Origin: Microcoleus sp.
GTDB taxonomy: Bacteria > Cyanobacteriota > Cyanobacteriia > Cyanobacteriales > Microcoleaceae
Length of the DNA stretch: 64,000 nucleotides
NCBI GenBank assembly: GCA_042408215.1
Contig: JAYFMW010000014.1
Span: 32,001-96,000, forward strand
Direction: 5' to 3'
Part shown: positions 22,186-36,914 of the stretch, in pieces
How positions within the stretch are numbered: the first letter of the stretch is position 1
How the letters are laid out: every line of letters begins with the position of its first letter
Made by a program: the position numbers and the translations under genes
Notes under the pieces: generated by a model
The model's database searches: none
What the model saw: the letters and a program-made list of their open reading frames with translations, nothing else
What the model was told of the DNA's origin: nothing

Positions 22186-23595
22186 CTACAACTGCTTCAC
22201 CTCAGCAACCAATTTGGCAACCACATCCTTAGCGCTACCAAACAACATCATCGTCTTATCCTTATAAAACAACTCATTGTCAACACCCGAAAAACCAGCA
22301 CTCATCCCGCGCTTAATTACGATCGTATGCTTAGCCTTATCAACCTCCAAAATCGGCATCCCATAAATCGGGCTCGCCGTATCGTGACGCGCCGCCGGAT
22401 TCACCACATCATTCGCACCAATCACCAACGCCACATCCGTCTCTTCAAACTGCGGATTGATATCGTCCATATCGTACAACTGCGGATAAGGCACGTTTGC
22501 TTCTGCTAGCAACACATTCATGTGCCCCGGCATCCGCCCAGCCACCGGGTGAATCGCGTATTTGACGTCAACTCCCATTTTTTCCAAACCGTCGGCTAAC
22601 TCGCGCACGGCGTGTTGTGCTTGCGCTACAGCCATCCCGTAGCCCGGAACGATCACAACCGATCGCGCATAACCCAACATCATCGCACTTTCTTCAATAT
22701 CAATGCTGTGAACAGTTTTGTCGATCGCCCCAGCAGCAGCCCCAGCAGCCCCAGCACTAGCACCACCGCTACCAAAGGCGCTAAACAACACGCTAGAAAG
22801 CGATCGATTCATCGCCTTACACATGATTTGCGTCAAAATAATCCCCGACGCGCCAACAAGTGCACCAGCGATAATCAGCATATTGTTCATCAAAATGAAC
22901 CCAGCCACACTCGCCGCAATCCCCGAATAGGAGTTAAGCAGCGACACCACCACCGGCATATCGCCGCCCCCAATCGGGAGCACAAACATGATTCCCAGAA
23001 TATTGGAAATCGCCACCAAAGCCAGGAATACCGGCACATTCTCCGGATTCGTCAGCATATAACCGCTGCCCGCTAAAAGCGCGATCGCCAGTAAAGCATT
23101 AAACGGCTGTTGTAGCGGAAACGTGACAGGAGCACCAGGTAGCAATTCTTGCAGCTTCGCAAACGCCACAACGCTACCAGTGAAAGTAATCCCGCCAATC
23201 AACACACCCAAAAGGATCGTGATTGTCGCGTCTGGAGTCGGCGATTCCGGGATGCTGAGATAGCGCCAGAATTCGCCCACAGCAACGAGTGCAGAAGCCG
23301 CGCCCCCAAAACCGTTAAGCAAACCCACCATCTGCGGCATATCCGTCATCGCCACGGTTTTCGCCATAATTGTTCCCAAAATGGAACCGATGATAATTCC
23401 GACAGCAATCAATTCGTAGCTGACTACTTGTTTTTCCAGCAACGTACCGACGATCGCAATCAACATCCCGATCGCAGCTAACACATTTCCTTGACGGGCG
23501 GTTGCGGGCGATCCCAACTGTTTCAAACCGACAATAAACAAAGATGCGGCAACTAAATAACCTAGTTGAATGGCACTTGGCAGAAAATCACTCAC
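22186..23595 (-). CDS. pntB: NAD(P) transhydrogenase subunit beta
   Basis: PGYGMAVAQAQ, HPVAGRMPGHMNVLLAEA, GANDVVNP. Confidence 0.97.
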   Translation of the reverse strand: MSDFLPSAIQLGYLVAASLFIVGLKQLGSPATARQGNVLAAIGMLIAIVGTLLEKQVVSYELIAVGIIIGSILGTIMAKTVAMTDMPQMVGLLNGFGGAASALVAVGEFWRYLSIPESPTPDATITILLGVLIGGITFTGSVVAFAKLQELLPGAPVTFPLQQPFNALLAIALLAGSGYMLTNPENVPVFLALVAISNILGIMFVLPIGGGDMPVVVSLLNSYSGIAASVAGFILMNNMLIIAGALVGASGIILTQIMCKAMNRSLSSVLFSAFGSGGASAGAAGAAAGAIDKTVHSIDIEESAMMLGYARSVVIVPGYGMAVAQAQHAVRELADGLEKMGVDVKYAIHPVAGRMPGHMNVLLAEANVPYPQLYDMDDINPQFEETDVALVIGANDVVNPAARHDTASPIYGMPILEVDKAKHTIVIKRGMSAGFSGVDNELFYKDKTMMLFGSAKDVVAKLVAEVKQL

Positions 23596-23637
23596 GCTTT
23601 AACCTCTAACTCTTTTCTCAGACATTTCTTGAAAATT

Positions 23638-24927
23638 TCATACAAACGAGTAGTTGTATCCATCGTTTCGTTGAACAGGCTTAATTTGATTCCGAGAAAC
23701 GCTAATCACAGTAGTGTCGTTTACTCGAATATCAAAATTTCCTTTAAACCTTGTGGTTTTAATTCGCTTGCATTTAACCCCCTCATACTTGCCGTCAATT
23801 ACAGAGACAATATCTCCAGTTTTCCAACCTTTGACCTTTTTTTTGGGCTGATAACCCTTGCGAGGAAAACCATATTTATCAGTCTGTACAACTTGGCGAC
23901 TCCCCCAACCCATAGCTTTAATTAGCAAAGGTTGATTGATTGCCAAAGTTAAACCCTGACTCACATCTCCGCAGCAAGCAGCATCTATCCAATGAGCCTT
24001 TGGTAAACCAAGTTTAGTCCGATTGAACTTAGTTAAAGAACCACGTCCTACATATATATGCTCGAGTTTTGTAGCCTTTAAAACTTCGAGCAAAGCAGAT
24101 TTAGTAGCATTGACCGCCGCCGCATCCTTTAATGGTGCTTTAGCTTGACTCATTATTCTTTTAAGAAGATCAGGCTGGCTTTTCAGAAAGTCTTTGATGT
24201 CTTCAGTCCCCTTTTTGATATTGCATTTTTTACAAGCCAAGCACAGGTTAGAAACACGATTGCTACCACCTTTAGCGCGTGGGTTCATATGCTCTACCTG
24301 TAACGGTAAATTTTCAGCACTACAGTAAGCACATTTGCGATTCCACTTTTCAAGCAGGTATTCTCTAACCTCATAACCTTGCAGTTCCCCTTGTTGATAT
24401 TCAATACCATAAACTTCAGGGCTTTGCATTTTTTGAGTATCAAACTTTACCAACTCAAAAGCTATTGATTTAATTGGTGCTAACTTACAAAGGCGATTCA
24501 CCCAGGTAATTGTAGTTAATACTCGATGCTGCAAACTTGGAGGTAGCCAACCTTTCCGACGAATACGATTAAAAAATCGCAGCTGACGATAACGAGTCTT
24601 ACGATTACGGCGGTTGCGTCGGATGGCACGGCGAGTTTCCAGTCGCGATTTGATAGCTTGCCCCCGATGGGTAAGTTCAGCACCCCAAATTACTTGGGTT
24701 AAGAACACCAAAGCTATACCAGTAGTTTTACTACCAGGATCGATGCGAATTTCTATTGGTTGTGGTTGTTCCTCTACTGATTTGTTGAGGATGATTGCAA
24801 ATGGGTACAGTCTGAAAACTTTTGCTTTGCCTGCATTTAATAGCTTTCTAGCTATCACTGGCAGGCACGGGGTTAAAGGTTTCTTCCTGCTATCGAGTAC
24901 GAATACTTGATTGGGATTTTTAGACAT
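23638..24927 (-). CDS. iscB: RNA-guided endonuclease IscB
   Basis: PLTP (PLMP) N-terminus, RuvC-I IDPGSK, R-rich bridge helix, RuvC-II FELVKFD, HNH CAYC...EH...GGSNRVSNLCLACKKCN, RuvC-III HWIDA. Confidence 0.95.
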   Translation of the reverse strand: MSKNPNQVFVLDSRKKPLTPCLPVIARKLLNAGKAKVFRLYPFAIILNKSVEEQPQPIEIRIDPGSKTTGIALVFLTQVIWGAELTHRGQAIKSRLETRRAIRRNRRNRKTRYRQLRFFNRIRRKGWLPPSLQHRVLTTITWVNRLCKLAPIKSIAFELVKFDTQKMQSPEVYGIEYQQGELQGYEVREYLLEKWNRKCAYCSAENLPLQVEHMNPRAKGGSNRVSNLCLACKKCNIKKGTEDIKDFLKSQPDLLKRIMSQAKAPLKDAAAVNATKSALLEVLKATKLEHIYVGRGSLTKFNRTKLGLPKAHWIDAACCGDVSQGLTLAINQPLLIKAMGWGSRQVVQTDKYGFPRKGYQPKKKVKGWKTGDIVSVIDGKYEGVKCKRIKTTRFKGNFDIRVNDTTVISVSRNQIKPVQRNDGYNYSFV

Positions 24928-24934
24928 GGTTGCG

Positions 24935-25156
24935 TCTATTCCTAATTAGTAAAGGTTGCCTTGGCATTGTTATTGGTCGGTATGATCTCAACAGCACTGG
25001 CTTTACAAAATCCTTGCCTGTTTAACTGCCGAGTTATAGAGCTTGGGGCTGGCACGTACTCCAAGGTATGAACTTGAACGCTTGCCAATAACGAAAGCCT
25101 GGACTTACTTAGAATTTTCTGGGTTTATTCAGAAATGTCTAGGATTTGAGTAAGTC
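24935..25156 (-). ncRNA. omegaRNA (HEARO-like) scaffold of the IscB element; guide predicted from 5' flank ~25157-25176
   Basis: Non-coding leader of iscB; GACTTACT (25156-25149) pairs with AGTAAGTC (25109-25102); GTCCAG/CGTTA, GCCAG..GCTCT and TTAAACAG motifs shared with the other omega-like elements. Confidence 0.75.
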
Positions 25157-25435
25157 TTTTTTCTTGAACATTTGTAGCATTCGATCGGTGACTAAGAAAC
25201 CGCCGACAACGTTAATTGTGGCAAGGGCGATCGCGATCGTCCCCAAAATCGAAGTAACAGTCACATTACCTTGGCCTGAAATTAGAATTGCGCCTAAAAC
25301 CGCAATTCCTGAAATCGCATTGGAACCCGACATCAAAGGTGTGTGTAGCGTCGGTGGGACTTTGTTAATTACTTCAAATCCCACAAACGATGCTAGAGTA
25401 AACACCACTAAACCTGCAATCAATCCTTCTGCCAT
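25139..25435 (-). CDS. pntA: NAD(P) transhydrogenase subunit alpha part 2 (C-terminus rewritten by the insertion)
   Basis: LHTPLMSGSNAISG, NVVGGFLVTDRMLQMF. Confidence 0.95.
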   Translation of the reverse strand: MAEGLIAGLVVFTLASFVGFEVINKVPPTLHTPLMSGSNAISGIAVLGAILISGQGNVTVTSILGTIAIALATINVVGGFLVTDRMLQMFKKKDLLKS

Positions 25436-25441
25436 AATACT

Positions 25442-25620
25442 TGGTAATTGGTAATTGGTTATTTGTCATTAGTCATTAGTTGTTAGTCATTAGTCATTAG
25501 TTGTTAGTCATTAGTTGTTAGTCATTAGTTGTTATTTTCAATGACTCCCGACTCCCGACTACCGACTACTAACTACTAACTAATGACTACTAACTAATGA
25601 CTAATGACTACTGACTAATG
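25442..25620. repeat. Heptamer STRR tracts (TTAGTCA / TGACTAA etc.) in inverted arrangement
   Basis: Directly visible between pntA1 and pntA2. Confidence 0.85.
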
Positions 25621-26763
25621 ACTGCTGACTGCGGAAGCAGCCAAAGCATCCCGCACTCGCTGGTTACTAATTTCACCATCACGAGCCACACAGGAACCAG
25701 CGATGATATCGTCTTCAAAATTCAGATTTAGCTCCTTATCTTTCAGCATCAACTGAAGCAAAGACGAGACATTCTTCGAGTAAGTTTCACTAGCATGAAC
25801 AGGCATTGAGGATGGTAAATTAATCGGGCCAATCACATTAACACCGTTCCATTCAACATCTTTTCCTGCTTCCGTGCACTCGCAATTGCCGCCTTGCTCG
25901 GCCGCGAGGTCAACAATTACTGCTCCCGGTTTCATTTGAGAAACCATTTCTCTAGTCACTAAAATCGGTGCTTTTCTACCAGGAACTTGAGCCGTTGTAA
26001 TCACCGCATCGGAAGCACCGACGTGCTGGGTGAGCACTTGACGGGTGTGTTCTTTAGCGGCTTCTGATAATTCTTTAGCATAGCCGCCTGCTGCTACAGT
26101 TTCTTCTTTGAGTTCGACATCAATAAATTTAGCACCCAAACTTTGCACTTGTTCTTTTGTTTCTGGGCGGATGTCAAATGCTTCGACTACTGCGCCCAAA
26201 CGACGCGCCGTGGCGATCGCCTGTAAGCCCGCAACGCCCACACCCATTACCAAAACTTTCGCGGGGCGAATCGTACCCGCCGCCGTTGTCAGCATCGGAA
26301 AATACTTCGGTAAAGCCGCTGCTGCGATCAATACCGCTTTGTAACCGGCGACGTTAGCCTGAGATGACAGCGCATCCATGCTTTGAGCGCGGCTGGTGCG
26401 CGGGATCATTTCCATACTGAATGCAGTCACTTGGCGATCGGCTAAACGCTGTACCAAAGCCGGATTTCCCAAAGGATTCAAAAATCCGATGAAAACTGCT
26501 CCTTCCCGCAGTTGATGAACTTCTGACTCTTGCAATTCCCCGATTTTGACGACGACATCAGCTTCGCCCCACAGCGTAGCGGTATCGGCGACAATCTGAG
26601 CTCCGGCTTCTTCGTAAGCCAGATCCGAGAAAAAGGATTTTGCTCCGGCACCGGCCTCAACCCAAACTTGGACGCCTTGTTTTACCAATTTGGCCACAGC
26701 GTCGGGTACTAAAGCCACCCGGCGCTCGCCTGCTGCTATTTCTTTTGCGATCGCTAATTTCAT
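25615..26763 (-). CDS. pntA: NAD(P) transhydrogenase subunit alpha part 1
   Basis: ERRVALVP, RAQSMDALSSQ, GVGVAGL, DLAAEQGGNC; ATG at 26763. Confidence 0.95.
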   Translation of the reverse strand: MKLAIAKEIAAGERRVALVPDAVAKLVKQGVQVWVEAGAGAKSFFSDLAYEEAGAQIVADTATLWGEADVVVKIGELQESEVHQLREGAVFIGFLNPLGNPALVQRLADRQVTAFSMEMIPRTSRAQSMDALSSQANVAGYKAVLIAAAALPKYFPMLTTAAGTIRPAKVLVMGVGVAGLQAIATARRLGAVVEAFDIRPETKEQVQSLGAKFIDVELKEETVAAGGYAKELSEAAKEHTRQVLTQHVGASDAVITTAQVPGRKAPILVTREMVSQMKPGAVIVDLAAEQGGNCECTEAGKDVEWNGVNVIGPINLPSSMPVHASETYSKNVSSLLQLMLKDKELNLNFEDDIIAGSCVARDGEISNQRVRDALAASAVSSH

Positions 26764-27230
26764 AAACAAACTCGGTAAGTGGGAAACTCAGTGGCTTTAG
26801 CCCGCTCGTGGGAAACGACCCTTCGACTGCGCTCAGGGCGACGCACGAGCGGTTTTAACCGCTTTGAATAACTTGTTTTATTACCGCCTTGGAGTTGTTC
26901 AATTCGGTGTGCTTTTGTGATGCACTTTCAATGGGACAGTTACCATTTCAAATTTCACAACCCTGTACGCATAATAGTTTTGCTCGATTGACAAGCCTCC
27001 CATTTCTGGGGTAATGTTAGCTTCGACCTGTTATAAGAGCTTGTTGGGCTTGCAACACTGTTCCAGTGACCTTAGAACTGTTTAATCACAAGCGACAGAG
27101 CGGGGAACTAGCTACGCATTCGCCCGGTGTCGTGACTCAAATAACGGCTCCTCTTACGAGGGGTCTGGTCAATACGGCTTGCGAGAGATTTCTCTTACAA
27201 GCTCAGTCCCTTTAGGGCTGGGTTACTGAC
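26764..27230 (-). mobile_element. Non-autonomous omegaRNA (HEARO-like) element with no ORF, between the pntA1 RBS and its ATG
   Basis: Begins GTCAGTAAC...TTGACCAGACC, contains TTAAACAG and GGTCGAAG, ends CTGAGTTTCCCACTTACCGAG; homologous to 34098-34459. Confidence 0.85.
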
Positions 27231-34097: not shown

Positions 34098-34459
34098 GTC
34101 AGCAACTCAGGTCTAAAGACACTGAGCTTGTAAGAAATTATAAGCTGTGCTGACCAGACCCCTCTTCTGAGGAGACGTTATTTAGGTCACGATACCGGAG
34201 AATGCGACGCTAGTTTTCCGCTCTATCATCTGCAATTAAACAGTTTTAAAGTCACTGAAACAGTGTTGCAGGTCTAACAAGCCTTTATAACCAGGTCGAA
34301 GCGAACATTACCCGAAAGGGAAAGAGAGACAACCATATCTCCCTAGAGGGGCAACCATACCCCTCTCCCTCGCAAGGGGGATTGAAGGCGGTTGAAACCG
34401 CCGAGTCGTTTCCCTCTCAGGTCTAAAGACTCTGAGTTTCCCACTTACCGAGCTTTTTT
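34098..34459 (+). mobile_element. Non-autonomous omegaRNA (HEARO-like) element with no ORF, directly before the ATG of the DUF4231 gene
   Basis: GTCAGC...GCTGACCAGACC; hairpin CTCAGGTCTAAAGACNCTGAG at both ends; ends CCCACTTACCGAGCTTTTTT followed by ATGA. Confidence 0.85.
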
Positions 34460-35302
34460 ATGACTACTTCTGCACAGAAAAACCAGACCGAGATTTCCAA
34501 TACAGTCTCATCAAATCCACAAATGTTATCTTTCCTGAAAATTATCGAGTATTTATCCCTAGCTGCTTTTGCTGGTGTATGCCTCCTTACCAGAGTTTTT
34601 CCAGACAATCAACTTGTCGTTATCTGGGGAGCTGTTTTTCTCTCTAGCTTTATTTTTATCTTTCTGACCAATAGACAATTGGCTCAGAACTCTAGGAATC
34701 TGACTAATCAGTTAGAACTCGGAAGAAAAGCTGAATTATATAGTTATCTGTTGAACCCGAATAATTCTTCAGAACACAATCTGATAACTCCCGTGAGAGT
34801 AAAGGCTTTACGATATTGCCAGGAGTTGATTGACGACTATAAAAAGACTAGAGAGACTTCGAGAAATATTTATTATACTTTCCAATTGGCAACCGTTATT
34901 TTATCGGGAGTCACACCAATTTTAGTATTGGTAGACAAATTGGAACCAGGTCAAACTTTGCTCAAGTGGCTGCCCGTAATTTGTCCCGCTGTCGCCTCAA
35001 TAGTCGCCAGTATAGTTACCTCCTTTCCTTTTCAGGAGAATTGGATTTCTGCTAACACGACTGTGGAATTGTTAGAAGCGGAACAGGAGAAATTTATATT
35101 GGGAGTGACTCCGGCTTATCGTTGCTATGATGTAGCCGACGAAGCCCAACATCAACAAATGACAAAAATGGCAATAGAAAACTTTATCAATCAGGTGAAT
35201 GAAATTCATCTCAAGCAAATCCAAAAACCAGATGAGACACGATCAAATGAGCAGAATACAGAGCCCGATCAATCTACTGAGTCAAAGCAGGGGCAGAGTT
35301 AA
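34460..35302 (+). CDS. DUF4231 (SLATT-like) membrane protein
   Basis: Two N-terminal TMs, then a helix, a TM pair and ENW...ELLEAEQEKF. Confidence 0.7.
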   Translation: MTTSAQKNQTEISNTVSSNPQMLSFLKIIEYLSLAAFAGVCLLTRVFPDNQLVVIWGAVFLSSFIFIFLTNRQLAQNSRNLTNQLELGRKAELYSYLLNPNNSSEHNLITPVRVKALRYCQELIDDYKKTRETSRNIYYTFQLATVILSGVTPILVLVDKLEPGQTLLKWLPVICPAVASIVASIVTSFPFQENWISANTTVELLEAEQEKFILGVTPAYRCYDVADEAQHQQMTKMAIENFINQVNEIHLKQIQKPDETRSNEQNTEPDQSTESKQGQS

Positions 35303-35496: not shown

Positions 35497-36914
35497 CGGG
35501 AAGCCCCTGGCTTTAGACATGGGGAGGAACGTGGTTGCGACTTACTTGAGGAGCCTGTATTTTTCTTGTCTTTTTAATCATTTGATAGCAGGTGAGAAGG
35601 TATAATACAAAAAGGAGGTAACAAAAATGTTTGGCTGCCAACAAAATCTAATTAGCCCTGATAAAGACCTCAAAGCAATTCTAGAATTCCTGTGCAGTGA
35701 GTCATCAAAATTGACTAATTGCGGAATCTATTACGCTCGTCAAATGTATTTCAAAACAGGTAAAATACCTAGTAGAGCCGAATTGCATAAAGTATTAGGC
35801 ACTGAAAATCGCAATTTGCACTACCAAGCATTTTATTCGGATACTGCACAGCAGATTCTAACTACTGTCGCCGAGTCTTTTAAGTCCTACATTGGACTAT
35901 TAAAAGGCATTAAGGCAGGGACAGTAACTCAAAAGCCTAGACTACCCAATTATCGACAAGGTGGTCTAGCTTTGGTGACGTATACATGGCGCTCTGTAAA
36001 GCTAAAAGACGGGCTATTGAGATTTCCGCTAGGTACGCAGTTAAAAGCCTGGTTCGGACTGGATGCTTTTTATCTACCTATGCCTACAAACTTAGACCAC
36101 ACAGCAATCAGAGAGTATCGAATTCTACCTAGAAACGGCTGTTTTTACTTGGAATTAATCTACAAAACTGAGAATATTGAAGCAGATGTAGACCCATCTA
36201 AAGCTTTGATGATCGACCACGGAATGAACAATTGGCTGACTTGTGTCAGTAATATAGGGACTAGCTTTATTATTGATGGTTTGCATCTGAAGTCGATCAA
36301 TCAAGGATACAATAAGCGTGTTGCTTTTTTGACGGAAGGGAAAGCGAATGGCTATTGGTCAAAACGACTTGAGCGATTGACTGAAAATCGCAATCGGACG
36401 ATGCGAGATGCTGTCAACAAAGCTGCTCGGAAGGTGATTAATCATTGTTTAGTCAACAATCTGGGTACTGTGATATGCGGCTGGAATGCTGGGATGAAAA
36501 ATGGTCTGAATCTGGGAGCTAAAACTAACCAAAAGTTTGTTCAGATTCCAACTGGCAGACTCAAGGATAGAATCGCTCAATTGTGCGAGCAGTATAGAAT
36601 TCGTTTTGTAGAAACTGAGGAGTCCTATACATCGAAAGCTTCGTTTATCGATCGAGATGTGCTACCTAAATTCTGCGAAAAACCAGAAGGGTGGCAACCT
36701 TGCGGTAAACGAATTCAGCGCGGATTGTATAGGACTTTTGAAGGTTTGTTAATTAATGCAGATTGCAATGGTGCAGCTAATATCGGTCGAAAAGTAGCGG
36801 CAACCTTGGGGCTTTGTCTTAAGGGAGTCAGTAGAGGTGCCTTGATAACGCCTTTGAAAGTCCCTTTGTGGTCTTAATCAAGAATCCCCCCGATTCATCG
36901 GTGGGGAGTATCAA
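35497..36914 (+). mobile_element. IS200/IS605-family TnpB-only element (left boundary approximate)
   Basis: Left hairpin CCCCTGGCTTTAGACATGGGG; right end CCCCCCGATTCATCGGTGGGGAGTATCAA. Confidence 0.75.
35627..36877 (+). CDS. tnpB: RNA-guided endonuclease TnpB (cyanobacterial MFGCQQ clade)
   Basis: IDHG (RuvC-I), EESYTSK, INADCNGAANI; AGGAGG RBS. Confidence 0.9.
   Translation: MFGCQQNLISPDKDLKAILEFLCSESSKLTNCGIYYARQMYFKTGKIPSRAELHKVLGTENRNLHYQAFYSDTAQQILTTVAESFKSYIGLLKGIKAGTVTQKPRLPNYRQGGLALVTYTWRSVKLKDGLLRFPLGTQLKAWFGLDAFYLPMPTNLDHTAIREYRILPRNGCFYLELIYKTENIEADVDPSKALMIDHGMNNWLTCVSNIGTSFIIDGLHLKSINQGYNKRVAFLTEGKANGYWSKRLERLTENRNRTMRDAVNKAARKVINHCLVNNLGTVICGWNAGMKNGLNLGAKTNQKFVQIPTGRLKDRIAQLCEQYRIRFVETEESYTSKASFIDRDVLPKFCEKPEGWQPCGKRIQRGLYRTFEGLLINADCNGAANIGRKVAATLGLCLKGVSRGALITPLKVPLWS

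What the first reader, a model, noticed from the sequence alone, without database searches (positions are those of the whole stretch)
23592..25176. IscB element inserted in the last codons of pntA2, with an AGA direct repeat and imperfect inverted ends
Seen: removing 23607-25156 restores KKKEVKA* with TGA overlapping the pntB GTG. With the element, pntA2 ends KKKDLLKS*, using a stop inside the omegaRNA 5' region, and pntB keeps a GAGG SD-like sequence. AGA occurs at both junctions. The ends are imperfect inverted repeats: TTACTCAAATCCTAGACATTTCTGAA vs TAACTCTTTTCTCAGACATTTCTTGAA. Knowledge: Y1-TnpA IS200/IS605 elements lack TIRs and target duplications, whereas IS607 serine-recombinase elements use a short shared core and DDE elements make TSDs. 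Inference: this IscB clade may be mobilised by a non-Y1 route. Its guide is pntA2 coding sequence (...CAAATGTTCAAGAAAAAA) with a predicted TAM starting GAGG, unlike the ATGA family nearby. RuvC D/E/D and HNH His are retained.
Basis: partly seen in the sequence, partly recalled or inferred. Interest (0 to 1): 0.75.

Follow-up and report, generated by a model that had tools for sequence, protein, structure and literature searches.

The report
IscB element with IS607-like ends
A small mobile element that carries the Cas9 ancestor IscB and its guide RNA sits in the last codons of a transhydrogenase gene, and its ends look like those of serine-recombinase (IS607) transposons rather than the hairpin ends usual for IscB elements.

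Summary
A 1550-bp IscB plus omegaRNA element (window 23607-25156, minus strand) interrupts pntA2 four codons before its stop. All 20 same-genus relatives examined have the uninterrupted ...AAGAAAAAAGAGGTTAAAGCGTGA.

The 'AGA direct repeat' is only partly right. Across 16 5' junctions and 20 3' junctions of the family, only GA is common to both sides. The 5' flank is otherwise variable, which fits a guide. The 3' flank always starts GAG, which fits a target/TAM. Five empty sites hold a single GA(G).

The inverted ends are real and conserved. Reading inward from each terminal dinucleotide, GACA motifs sit at positions 17/18, with further copies at 27 and 37 in some members. A bona fide IS607-type element of the same genome (serine TnpA plus TnpB, GG termini) has TTAGACA at 18 and 28.

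The matching hairpins that other IscB families of this genome carry at both ends are absent.

Best reading, about 50%: a non-autonomous IscB element moved in trans by an IS607-type serine recombinase, with crossover at GA. A Y1 route is not excluded.

- No recombinase gene is linked to any copy.
- No cognate partner was identified.
- A second IscB lineage with similar repeats fails the 2-nt core rule.

The parts
23607..25156 (-). The 1550-bp IscB-omegaRNA element. The boundary can be shifted by up to 2-3 nt because GA (here AGA) occurs at both junctions.
   Evidence: Empty site in 20/20 same-genus relatives. Copies of 99.6-99.7% identity lie at other sites in two other genomes. A metagenome contig skips exactly 1550 nt with 3-nt ambiguity.
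25157..25172 (-). Predicted guide source: the last pntA2 codons immediately 5' of the omegaRNA scaffold (...AATGTTCAAGAAAAAA). The 16-nt length is assumed from known IscB systems (recalled).
   Evidence: The 5' flank differs in every independent copy. The HEARO scaffold starts at 25156.
24949..25156 (-). omegaRNA scaffold, a HEARO-type RNA that lacks the model's first hairpin.
   Evidence: 70.8 bits, model positions 1-211. The P1 stem GACTTACT/AGTAAGTC and the inner stem are kept in 15 copies, with 2 pairs changed on both sides.
25155..25156 (-). Terminal dinucleotide GA at the omegaRNA end. It is the candidate crossover core, or in the Y1 reading the last bases of the end motif ..GTC on the other strand.
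   Evidence: GA at 16/16 5' junctions, with a 2-nt CA insert after it in L075.
25132..25141 (-). 5' subterminal motif TAGACATTTC. GACA starts at position 18 from the terminus. A degenerate second copy lies about 11 nt further in.
   Evidence: GACA is invariant in 15/15 aligned copies. Geometry.
23638..24927 (-). iscB ORF, 429 aa, intact.
23620..23629 (-). 3' subterminal motif AGAAATGTCT, the reverse complement of the 5' motif. On the + strand GACA starts at position 17 from the terminus. A second copy (ATTGTC) is present in most other family members and is degenerate here (ATTTTC).
   Evidence: TGTC is invariant in 19/19 aligned copies. Geometry. No consensus hairpin in this region.
23604..23606 (-). 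GAG: target/TAM abutting the 3' end. Its GA is the second copy of the shared dinucleotide.
   Evidence: GAG follows 20/20 3' ends and the fourth base varies. There is a single GAG in five empty sites.
25139..25435 (-). pntA2 with an altered C-terminus (DLLKS* in place of EVKA*). Its stop codon lies inside the omegaRNA 5' region.
22186..23595 (-). pntB, now 1.55 kb downstream of pntA2. The GAGG Shine-Dalgarno-like sequence is retained, and the stop/start overlap with pntA2 is lost.

Best explanation
This is a non-autonomous OMEGA transposon: an omegaRNA plus an intact iscB gene and no transposase gene. It inserted into the last codons of pntA2, in the same orientation as the pnt operon.

- The guide is the pntA2 sequence just 5' of the scaffold.
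- The TAM is the GAG that abuts the other end, so IscB would cut the restored empty site (...AAGAAAAAA|GAG...) and favour re-copying of the element.
- This family does not have the IS200/IS605 (Y1) end structure. It has IS607-type ends: the same dinucleotide (GA) at both termini and once in the target, and helically phased GACA-type motifs starting 17-18 nt from each terminus, inverted between the ends.

Inferred: an IS607-family serine recombinase supplied in trans binds these motifs. It excises the element as a double-stranded circle and inserts it at GA(G) by a 2-nt crossover. The TAM is therefore the crossover core plus G.

Shown: the insertion, its borders, the target motif, the variable guide flank, the end architecture and its match to a genuine IS607-type element.

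Not shown: which enzyme moves it, or any activity.
For: 1. Insertion and borders. The empty site is present in 20/20 same-genus relatives. There are four further clean empty sites in the own genome for copies found in other genomes.

2. Recent mobility. Copies of 99.6-99.7% identity sit at different sites in two other species-level genomes, and one of those genomes has the pntA2 site empty. A DNA metagenome shows the same picture.

3. Core dinucleotide. GA is at 16/16 5' junctions and 20/20 3' junctions, and occurs once in the empty sites.

4. Motifs and geometry.
- Reading inward from the terminal dinucleotide, GACA is at 18 at the 5' end.
- At the 3' end it is at 17, then 27, then 37 in L075.
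- The genuine IS607-type element S1 of this genome has four copies of 2008 bp. It encodes a TnpA of 223 aa with an N-terminal HTH and a resolvase domain, plus a TnpB of 375 aa, and has GG at both termini. It carries TTAGACA at 18 and 28 at its right end and at 28 (38) at its left end.
- No such motifs occur at the ends of an ATGA-type IscB element or of an IS605 element in the same genome.
- Background chance of GACA at 17/18 from a given position is 0.0070, or 4.9e-5 for both ends.

5. The motifs are invariant in 15 and 19 aligned copies down to 66% identity, although the 3' one is non-coding.

6. No Y1 end structure.
- There is no consensus structure in the last 40 nt of the 3' end.
- DNA folds of three of four other or own 3' ends have z from -0.17 to +0.54.
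- The HEARO first hairpin is missing.
- By contrast, 6 of 16 full-length IscB loci of this genome have near-identical 27-nt hairpins at both ends and ATGA 75 nt after the stop.

7. Literature, passages read.
- Chen et al. 2018, PMC6188088: IS607 ends have GG termini, GG in the target, a 2-bp exchange, and 9-bp directly repeated, helically phased motifs 10-60 bp from the ends, inverted between the ends.
- Review PMC13565253: IS607 TnpB TAMs are G-rich (AGGAG/GAGGG).
Against: - No serine recombinase lies within 1.5-4 kb of any of 99 IscB loci, about 83 of them distinct. This was a tblastn search with 16 serine-recombinase and 13 Y1 queries from this genome. Among 80 metagenome loci only one anecdotal case was found.
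- Published surveys found no iscB next to serine resolvases (Meers et al.; Altae-Tran et al.).
- The core here is GA, whereas the IS607-type elements I examined, and the literature, have GG.
- S1-like TnpA (76% identity or more) was found in only 3 of the 13 genomes that carry the family.
- No element with a recombinase gene shares these termini in 79 genomes of the genus.
- The window's own copy has only one perfect GACA per end. The second copy is degenerate.
- A second IscB lineage with tandem TGGACAA repeats at both ends inserts at GC|GATCG with only 1 nt shared between junctions. Such repeats are therefore not by themselves diagnostic of a 2-nt serine crossover.
- The GA shared by both junctions is also what a Y1 element would show if its end motif (..GTC) resembles its target (..CTC). 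The 5' GA is in any case constrained by the omegaRNA P1 stem.
Confidence: 0.5

Rival explanations
1. This is an ordinary IS200/IS605-type (ISC) element moved in trans by a Y1 HUH TnpA. On the top strand (window +) it inserts 3' of CTC, and its right end finishes with GTC. The shared GA is then just the usual likeness of the target motif (TAM) to the end motif (TEM). The omegaRNA stem would serve as the right-end hairpin, and a weak hairpin in or near the iscB 3' end would serve as the left-end hairpin.
For: - This is the published rule for IscB elements. Kapitonov et al. 2016, PMC4810608, report target-specific insertion, no TSD, and targets GT|GG, GT|RA and N|ATGA.
- Meers et al. report that the omegaRNA is bounded by the right end, that TAM and TEM differ at few positions, and that about 98.5% of iscB genes lack a nearby tnpA.
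- 20 Y1_Tnp matches exist in this genome.
- A coding-region stem 38-60 nt from the 3' end has one pair changed on both sides in 4 of 19 copies.
- The second IscB lineage with similar repeats has a Y1-like TAM/TEM pair, GATCG/GATAG.
Against: - No conserved hairpin exists in the 3' terminal 40 nt. 3' end folds are not better than shuffles in 3 of 4 copies.
- The two ends carry no similar hairpin on one strand, unlike 6 of 16 IscB loci and the IS605 families of the same genome.
- The target would be only 3 nt.
- No IS605 or TnpB-only element shares a terminus in 79 genomes. Kapitonov et al. found such partners for many ISC families.
- This reading does not explain phased, inverted GACA motifs with IS607 geometry.
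Confidence: 0.28
2. This is a terminal-inverted-repeat element moved by a DDE-type or other unknown transposase that duplicates a 2-bp GA target. The imperfect inverted ends, about 27 nt long, would be its binding sites.
For: - GA occurs twice when the site is occupied and once when it is empty.
- The ends are imperfect inverted repeats.
- The review PMC13565253 cites TnpB genes inside DDE elements with TIRs.
Against: - The best-conserved part of the inverted repeat is subterminal (17-27 nt in), not terminal. The terminal bases are offset by one (CTTACTC versus TAACTC).
- No other element in the own genome, or in 79 genus genomes, has these ends.
- The left GA is part of the omegaRNA P1 stem.
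Confidence: 0.1
3. The inverted complementarity (AGACAUUUCU near the omegaRNA 5' end, AGAAAUGUCU after the iscB stop) works at the RNA level. It would be a long-range pairing within the read-through transcript that controls omegaRNA processing or iscB translation, and it would say nothing about the transposase.
For: - The complementarity is 10 nt and is kept, with the L075 variant changed at both ends: GACAA at each.
- Contigs from an RNA library bridge both junctions.
Against: - In the second lineage, and in the Scytonema relatives, the 3' repeats lie inside the coding region but at a fixed place relative to the end.
- The same motif and spacing occur at the ends of IS607-type TnpB elements.
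- It does not explain the phased second and third copies.
Confidence: 0.07

Closest known systems
ISC / IscB-omegaRNA (OMEGA) elements of the IS200/IS605 superfamily (Kapitonov 2016; Altae-Tran 2021, recalled; Meers 2023)
   Same: - A single iscB gene (RRXRR/RuvC plus HNH) with a HEARO-type omegaRNA upstream.
- No transposase gene.
- The guide is taken from the 5' flank, and a fixed motif abuts the other end.
- Same orientation as the upstream gene.
- Low copy number.
   Different: - No matching subterminal hairpins. The first hairpin of the HEARO model is lost.
- The target N|GAG is not among the published GT|GG, GT|RA and N|ATGA sites.
- Both ends carry phased GACA motifs in inverted orientation and the same terminal dinucleotide.
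IS607-family transposons (serine recombinase TnpA plus TnpB; Chen et al. 2018, Boocock and Rice 2013)
   Same: - The same dinucleotide at both termini and in the target, and scarless sites.
- Directly repeated, helically phased motifs 10-60 bp from the ends, inverted between the ends.
- A guide RNA scaffold overlaps the motifs next to the guide.
- A G-rich TAM that contains the core.
- Motif (TAGACA), period (10-11 nt) and distance (17-18 nt) match element S1 of this genome.
   Different: - It carries iscB instead of tnpB, and no tnpA.
- The core is GA, not GG.
- Both ends look like S1's right end.
- No cognate recombinase was identified.
ATGA-type IscB elements of the same genome (for example at window 34098 onward and G000 C10:171260)
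   Same: IscB at 57-61% amino-acid identity, a HEARO omegaRNA, and a non-autonomous element.
   Different: They have near-identical 27-nt hairpins at both ends and insert 5' of ATGA, which is the classic Y1 pattern.

Membership tests
IscB / OMEGA RNA-guided nuclease element | IscB protein with RRXRR/RuvC and an inserted HNH domain | tested here: met
   Pfam RRXRR 6.5e-72 and HNH 3.6e-9. Matches solved IscBs at E 5.9e-38 to 1.5e-22.
IscB / OMEGA RNA-guided nuclease element | omegaRNA (HEARO) directly upstream of iscB | tested here: met
   RF02033 matches end to end at 70.8 bits, E 8e-14. This is below the gathering score of 83 because one hairpin is missing. Stems are kept in 15 copies.
IscB / OMEGA RNA-guided nuclease element | Guide derived from variable flank, with a fixed adjacent motif (TAM) on the far side of the element | tested here: met
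   The 16 5' flanks are all different. 20/20 3' flanks start GAG.
IscB / OMEGA RNA-guided nuclease element | RNA-guided DNA cleavage | not testable with these tools
   Only the motifs were seen in sequence.
IS200/IS605 (Y1 TnpA) transposon | Similar subterminal imperfect palindromes at both ends on one strand | tested here: not met
   No consensus structure in the last 40 nt of the 3' end. Folds are not better than shuffles in 3 of 4. No similarity between the omegaRNA-end stem and any 3' stem. Positive controls in the same genome do show matching hairpins.
IS200/IS605 (Y1 TnpA) transposon | Insertion 3' of a short specific motif without duplication, with an end motif resembling it | tested here: inconclusive
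   The top-strand target is CTC (3 nt) and the end motif is GTC. This is compatible but short, and equally explained by a 2-nt core.
IS200/IS605 (Y1 TnpA) transposon | Y1 TnpA in the element, or a Y1-bearing or TnpB-only element with the same termini in the genome | tested here: not met
   There are 20 Y1 matches in the genome but none near an IscB. No Y1 gene in 99 plus 80 loci. No shared termini.
IS607 (serine recombinase) transposon | Identical dinucleotide at both termini and at the exchange site of the empty target | tested here: met
   GA at 16/16 and 20/20 junctions, and once in 5 empty sites. The canonical dinucleotide is GG.
IS607 (serine recombinase) transposon | Multiple short directly repeated motifs, helically phased, within about 10-60 bp of each end and inverted between the ends | tested here: met
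   GACA at 18 (5' end) and at 17, 27 and (37) (3' end). The same motif and phase occur in S1. In the window's own copy the second motif is degenerate.
IS607 (serine recombinase) transposon | Serine recombinase TnpA (N-terminal HTH plus resolvase domain) encoded in the element | tested here: not met
   The only ORF is iscB. No serine recombinase is near any copy.
IS607 (serine recombinase) transposon | A cognate TnpA in trans whose own element has matching ends | tested here: inconclusive
   There are 26 resolvase-domain matches in the genome. S1 shares the motif and geometry but has GG termini, and was found in only 3 of 13 carrier genomes.
IS607 (serine recombinase) transposon | Double-stranded circular intermediate, with dependence on the catalytic serine | not testable with these tools
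   Only assembled contigs of public runs were available.

The most novel reading that the evidence does not exclude
A lineage of IscB-omegaRNA elements has left the single-strand Y1 (IS200/IS605) lifestyle and rides on IS607-type serine recombinases. Its TAM (GAG) is built around the 2-nt crossover core (GA), and the recombinase-binding repeats are embedded in the first 40 nt of the omegaRNA. That would be the first IscB-IS607 association. It would show that the Cas9 ancestor, like TnpB, switched transposase superfamilies.
Probability: 0.5. Interest if true: 0.8.

Novelty: new variant of a known kind. Interest (0 to 1): 0.7.

Why it matters
IscB, the ancestor of Cas9, is described in the papers I could read as tied to Y1 (IS200/IS605) elements only.
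- Two surveys state that iscB, unlike tnpB, is not found with serine recombinases.
- A 2026 review lists IscB under IS605 alone.
- My searches found no paper that describes IscB with IS607-type ends.

If this family is moved by a serine recombinase:
- The co-evolution of TAM and transposase target seen for TnpB in two transposon superfamilies would hold for IscB too.
- It would offer a natural IscB with a short G-rich TAM (GAG).
- It would give a clean test system, because the prediction is simple: matching dinucleotides and GACA repeats are required, and hairpins are not.

Locally, the insertion rewrites the PntA2 C-terminus and separates pntA2 from pntB by 1.55 kb, without destroying either reading frame.

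Tried and rejected
- **Linked transposase.** I searched 99 loci of IscB relatives with tblastn, using 13 Y1 and 16 serine-recombinase segments of the own genome. These were 78 loci from species genomes plus 21 from the genus, and 16 of them are duplicates. Nothing scored at E 1e-4 or better, and the best hit was E 0.018. The control against the own genome gave 509 hits.
- **Metagenome loci.** Among 80 loci, two carry an unrelated resolvase 3.5 kb away. One (L332) has fragments of an IS607-type TnpA just upstream of an IscB of 46% identity. About 0.6 such cases would be expected by chance at this genome's IS607 density, so I do not count it as support.
- **Partner with the same termini.** blastn-short of 70-nt ends against the own genome found only the two copies plus 15-19-nt chance matches. 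60-70-nt ends searched against 79 genus genomes found only copies of the family.
- **Pattern GACATTTCNNGAMAAT in 79 genomes.** It found the family copies, one conserved single-copy site per genome, and a few promoter-like TTGACA pairs. The five loci I looked at had no recombinase nearby.
- **S1 TnpA distribution** does not track the family.
- **Ends of other serine-recombinase families** (S2-S5) were read. All that could be defined end in GG, and none in GA.
- **Generalising to a second IscB lineage** (G000 C5:442108 and C21:57714, with relatives). It has tandem TGGACAA repeats at both ends, but two empty sites show insertion at GC|GATCG with only 1 nt shared. The 2-nt rule fails there.
- **A Y1 left-end hairpin.** The only recurring stem lies in the coding region and needs G-T pairs that become mismatches on the other strand. 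I rejected it as a convincing TnpA site.
- **Earlier notes of this scan.** There was nothing near this place.
- **Public runs.** Only assembled contigs were served, so starts, ends, strand, circle junctions and the parts without cover in the RNA library say nothing.


Full report
**What is there**

All genes of the region lie on the minus strand:
- pntAA: 25615-26769
- pntA2: 25139-25435
- an ORF of 429 aa: 23638-24927
- pntB: 22186-23595, with a GTG start

The 429-aa protein matches Pfam RRXRR (6.5e-72) and HNH, and solved IscB structures (best E 5.9e-38). Between pntA2 and this ORF, the Rfam HEARO model (the IscB omegaRNA) matches 24949-25156 end to end at 70.8 bits, E 8e-14. This is below the curated score of 83 because the model's first hairpin is almost wholly missing. 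Two other HEARO copies in the window score 136 and 146 bits.

**The insertion**

I took the pntA2 locus from 40 relatives. All 20 same-genus loci that hold the gene read ...CAAATGTTCAAGAAAAAAGAGGTTAAAGCGTGAG..., or a variant with 1-3 changes. That is KKKEVKA* with the stop overlapping the pntB start.

In the window, 1550 bp (23607-25156) are inserted after AAGAAAAAA. As a result:
- PntA2 now ends DLLKS*, using a stop inside the omegaRNA region.
- pntB keeps its GAGG.

Other evidence on this insertion:
- One other genome (G051) has the same insertion at the same site. There the element is itself split by a group II intron.
- A DNA metagenome contig skips exactly these 1550 bp, with a 3-nt ambiguity.
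- In one RNA library, contigs bridge both junctions of the occupied form (23508-23809 and 24992-25253). This fits read-through from the pnt operon, but DNA carry-over cannot be excluded.

**Borders, guide and target**

The genus holds the family in 13 of 79 genomes, with 1-3 copies each.

- **Recent mobility.** Two other species-level genomes carry copies of 99.6-99.7% identity at different sites. One of them has the pntA2 site empty. The element has therefore moved or been transferred recently.
- **5' junctions.** I read 16 of them. The flank differs each time. The element starts GAC in 15, and GA-CAC in one.
- **3' junctions.** I read 20, with 18 distinct flanks. The next bases are always GAG, followed by any base.
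- **Empty sites.** For four copies found in other genomes, the own genome holds the empty site. Each time it has one GAG joined directly to the left flank. A fifth site lies in a (GA)n run and differs by one unit, and a sixth was unclear.

So the 5' flank is the guide source, GAG is the target/TAM, and GA (not AGA) is what the two junctions share. The A before the left GA is flank: it is A in 11, G in 4 and T in 1 of 16.

**The ends**

TAGACATTTC lies 16-25 nt from the 5' end, and its complement lies at the mirror position of the 3' end.

- GACA/TGTC is invariant in 15 aligned 5' ends and 19 aligned 3' ends, down to 66% overall identity. The 3' motif is non-coding.
- Most copies have a second motif about 10-11 nt further in (ATTGTC...AATGTC). 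One diverged copy (L075) has three at its 3' end: TAGACAAATA TAGACACAAT TCGACAAAGG.
- The window's own copy has one perfect motif per end, and the second is degenerate.
- RNAalifold finds the omegaRNA P1 and inner stems at the 5' end. It finds no structure at all in the last 40 nt of the 3' end.
- DNA folds of 3' ends are not better than shuffles, with z of -1.4 for the window and -0.17, +0.50 and +0.54 for three others.

**Contrast within the same genome**

Of 16 full-length IscB loci:
- Six have near-identical 27-nt hairpins (CCACTA...TAGTGG type) in the omegaRNA 5' region and after the stop, with ATGA 75 nt after the stop.
- Two more have a second hairpin type at both ends, judged by eye.

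This is the published Y1 pattern (Kapitonov et al.). IS605 elements of the genome have the same kind of hairpins. Our family has none of this.

**Comparison with IS607-type elements**

The genome has 26 resolvase-domain matches. One family, S1, has these features:
- Four copies of 2008 bp, 98-99% alike.
- It encodes a 223-aa TnpA with an N-terminal HTH followed by a resolvase domain, and a 375-aa TnpB.
- It has GG at both termini and unrelated flanks.

Positions of GACA, reading inward from the terminal dinucleotide:

| End | GACA starts at |
|---|---|
| S1 right end | 18 and 28, with a degenerate third copy at 38 |
| S1 left end | 28 (38 in the S1b relative) |
| This IscB family, 5' end | 18 |
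| This IscB family, 3' end | 17, 27 (and 37 in L075) |

- The S1 right end reads CC + 12 nt + TTAGACAAAG TTAGACACCG TTAGATG.
- The left end of an S1 relative (GG...ACTAAATTCTTAGACATCTATTGACATCC) resembles the IscB 5' end (GA...ACTAAAATCCTAGACATTTCTGGAGAAATCC).
- In the genome at large, GACA falls at 17/18 from a given position with frequency 0.0070. That is 4.9e-5 for both ends. This is a post-hoc figure.

The passages I read of Chen et al. 2018 (PMC6188088) define IS607 ends in just these terms:
- GG at the termini and GG in the empty target.
- Exchange over 2 identical bp.
- 9-bp direct repeats in helical phase, 10-60 bp from the ends, inverted between the ends.
- Little sequence requirement in the terminal 19 bp.

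**Interpretation**

The simplest account of all this is that the family has IS607-type ends and is moved in trans by a serine recombinase that exchanges strands at GA.

- The TAM (GAG) would then be the core plus G. This parallels IS607 TnpB, whose G-rich TAMs contain the GG core (review PMC13565253).
- After excision the donor joint ...AAGAAAAAA-GA-GGTT... would carry the guide match followed by GAG. This is what IscB needs to re-cut it.

**What speaks against it**

- No recombinase is linked to any copy.
- No element with a recombinase gene shares the termini.
- Every IS607-type end I could define has GG.
- S1-like TnpA was found in only 3 of the 13 carrier genomes.
- The shared GA can equally be read as a Y1 end motif (GTC) resembling its target (CTC). 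Meers et al. describe such likeness as usual.
- A second IscB lineage (445 aa; the own genome, five other genus genomes and two Scytonema loci) also carries tandem TGGACAA repeats at both ends. It inserts into GC|GATCG with only one base shared between the junctions, and its GATCG/GATAG pair looks Y1-like. Repeats of this kind therefore do not by themselves prove a serine route.

I put the serine route at about 0.5, a Y1 route at about 0.28, and other routes lower.

**Literature**

Searches listed no paper that describes IscB with IS607-type ends or with a serine recombinase.
- Meers et al. (bioRxiv 10.1101/2023.03.14.532601, passages read) state that tnpB, but not iscB, was found with serine resolvases, and that about 1.5% of iscB genes have a tnpA nearby.
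- Altae-Tran et al. (PMC10691335, passages read) contrast IscB/IsrB with TnpB in this respect.
- Kapitonov et al. (PMC4810608, passages read) list 4 genomes with ISC elements, a serine transposase and no Y1. They nevertheless conclude in favour of Y1.
- I did not open the supplements of any of these papers. They may hold cases that bear on the claim of novelty.

**Verdict**

The insertion and its consequences are confirmed. 'AGA' shrinks to GA. The inverted ends are functional-looking, and they match IS607 architecture rather than IS605. The non-Y1 idea is the best-supported reading, but it rests on architecture alone.

Noticed in passing
window 26764-27230 (minus strand): There is a HEARO omegaRNA (135.9 bits) with no iscB behind it. 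The roughly 470-bp element ends ...ACCGAGTTTGTTT|ATGA, where ATG is the likely true start codon of pntAA (MKLAIAKE...). An ATGA-type, omegaRNA-only derivative therefore sits directly on the start of the same operon.
   Followed up: partly
window 34098-34311 (+), with ORFs 34460-35302 and 35627-36877: This is the third HEARO copy (145.7 bits). It is followed by a 280-aa and a 416-aa ORF rather than one IscB-sized ORF. I did not examine it.
   Followed up: no
L137 2423-4000 (genome G051, same pntA2 insertion): A 1578-bp insert splits iscB after element position 808. It starts GTGCG and ends ...CCTAC, and carries a 276-aa ORF with an HNH-like C-terminus. It looks like a group II intron. The family assignment is by recall; no search was run.
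   Followed up: partly
G000 C5:441868-443457 and C21 (L260-L268); Scytonema loci L175, L184: A second IscB lineage (445 aa) has tandem TGGACAA repeats at both ends. It inserts into the cyanobacterial HIP1-like site GC|GATCG, and the first two bases of its omegaRNA P1 stem come from the target. How it is mobilised is unexplained.
   Followed up: partly
G000 C3:174529-176536, C3:444936-446943, C5:26739-28746, C17:510394-512401: Four copies of an IS607-type element, 98-99% identical, encode a serine TnpA and TnpB. They have GG termini and three phased TTAGACA motifs. The element is probably active.
   Followed up: yes
L332 2682-5311 (soil metagenome contig): Fragments of an IS607-type TnpA lie directly upstream of an omegaRNA-sized gap and an IscB of 46% identity. 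The HTH part is on the minus strand and the catalytic N-terminus (YARISS) on the plus strand. It could be a remnant of a serine TnpA plus IscB element, or a chance neighbour.
   Followed up: partly
window 25440-25500: A short repeated sequence (TTAGTCATTAG-type) just upstream of pntA2 attracts very high contig depth in all four public runs. It is a widespread simple repeat.
   Followed up: no
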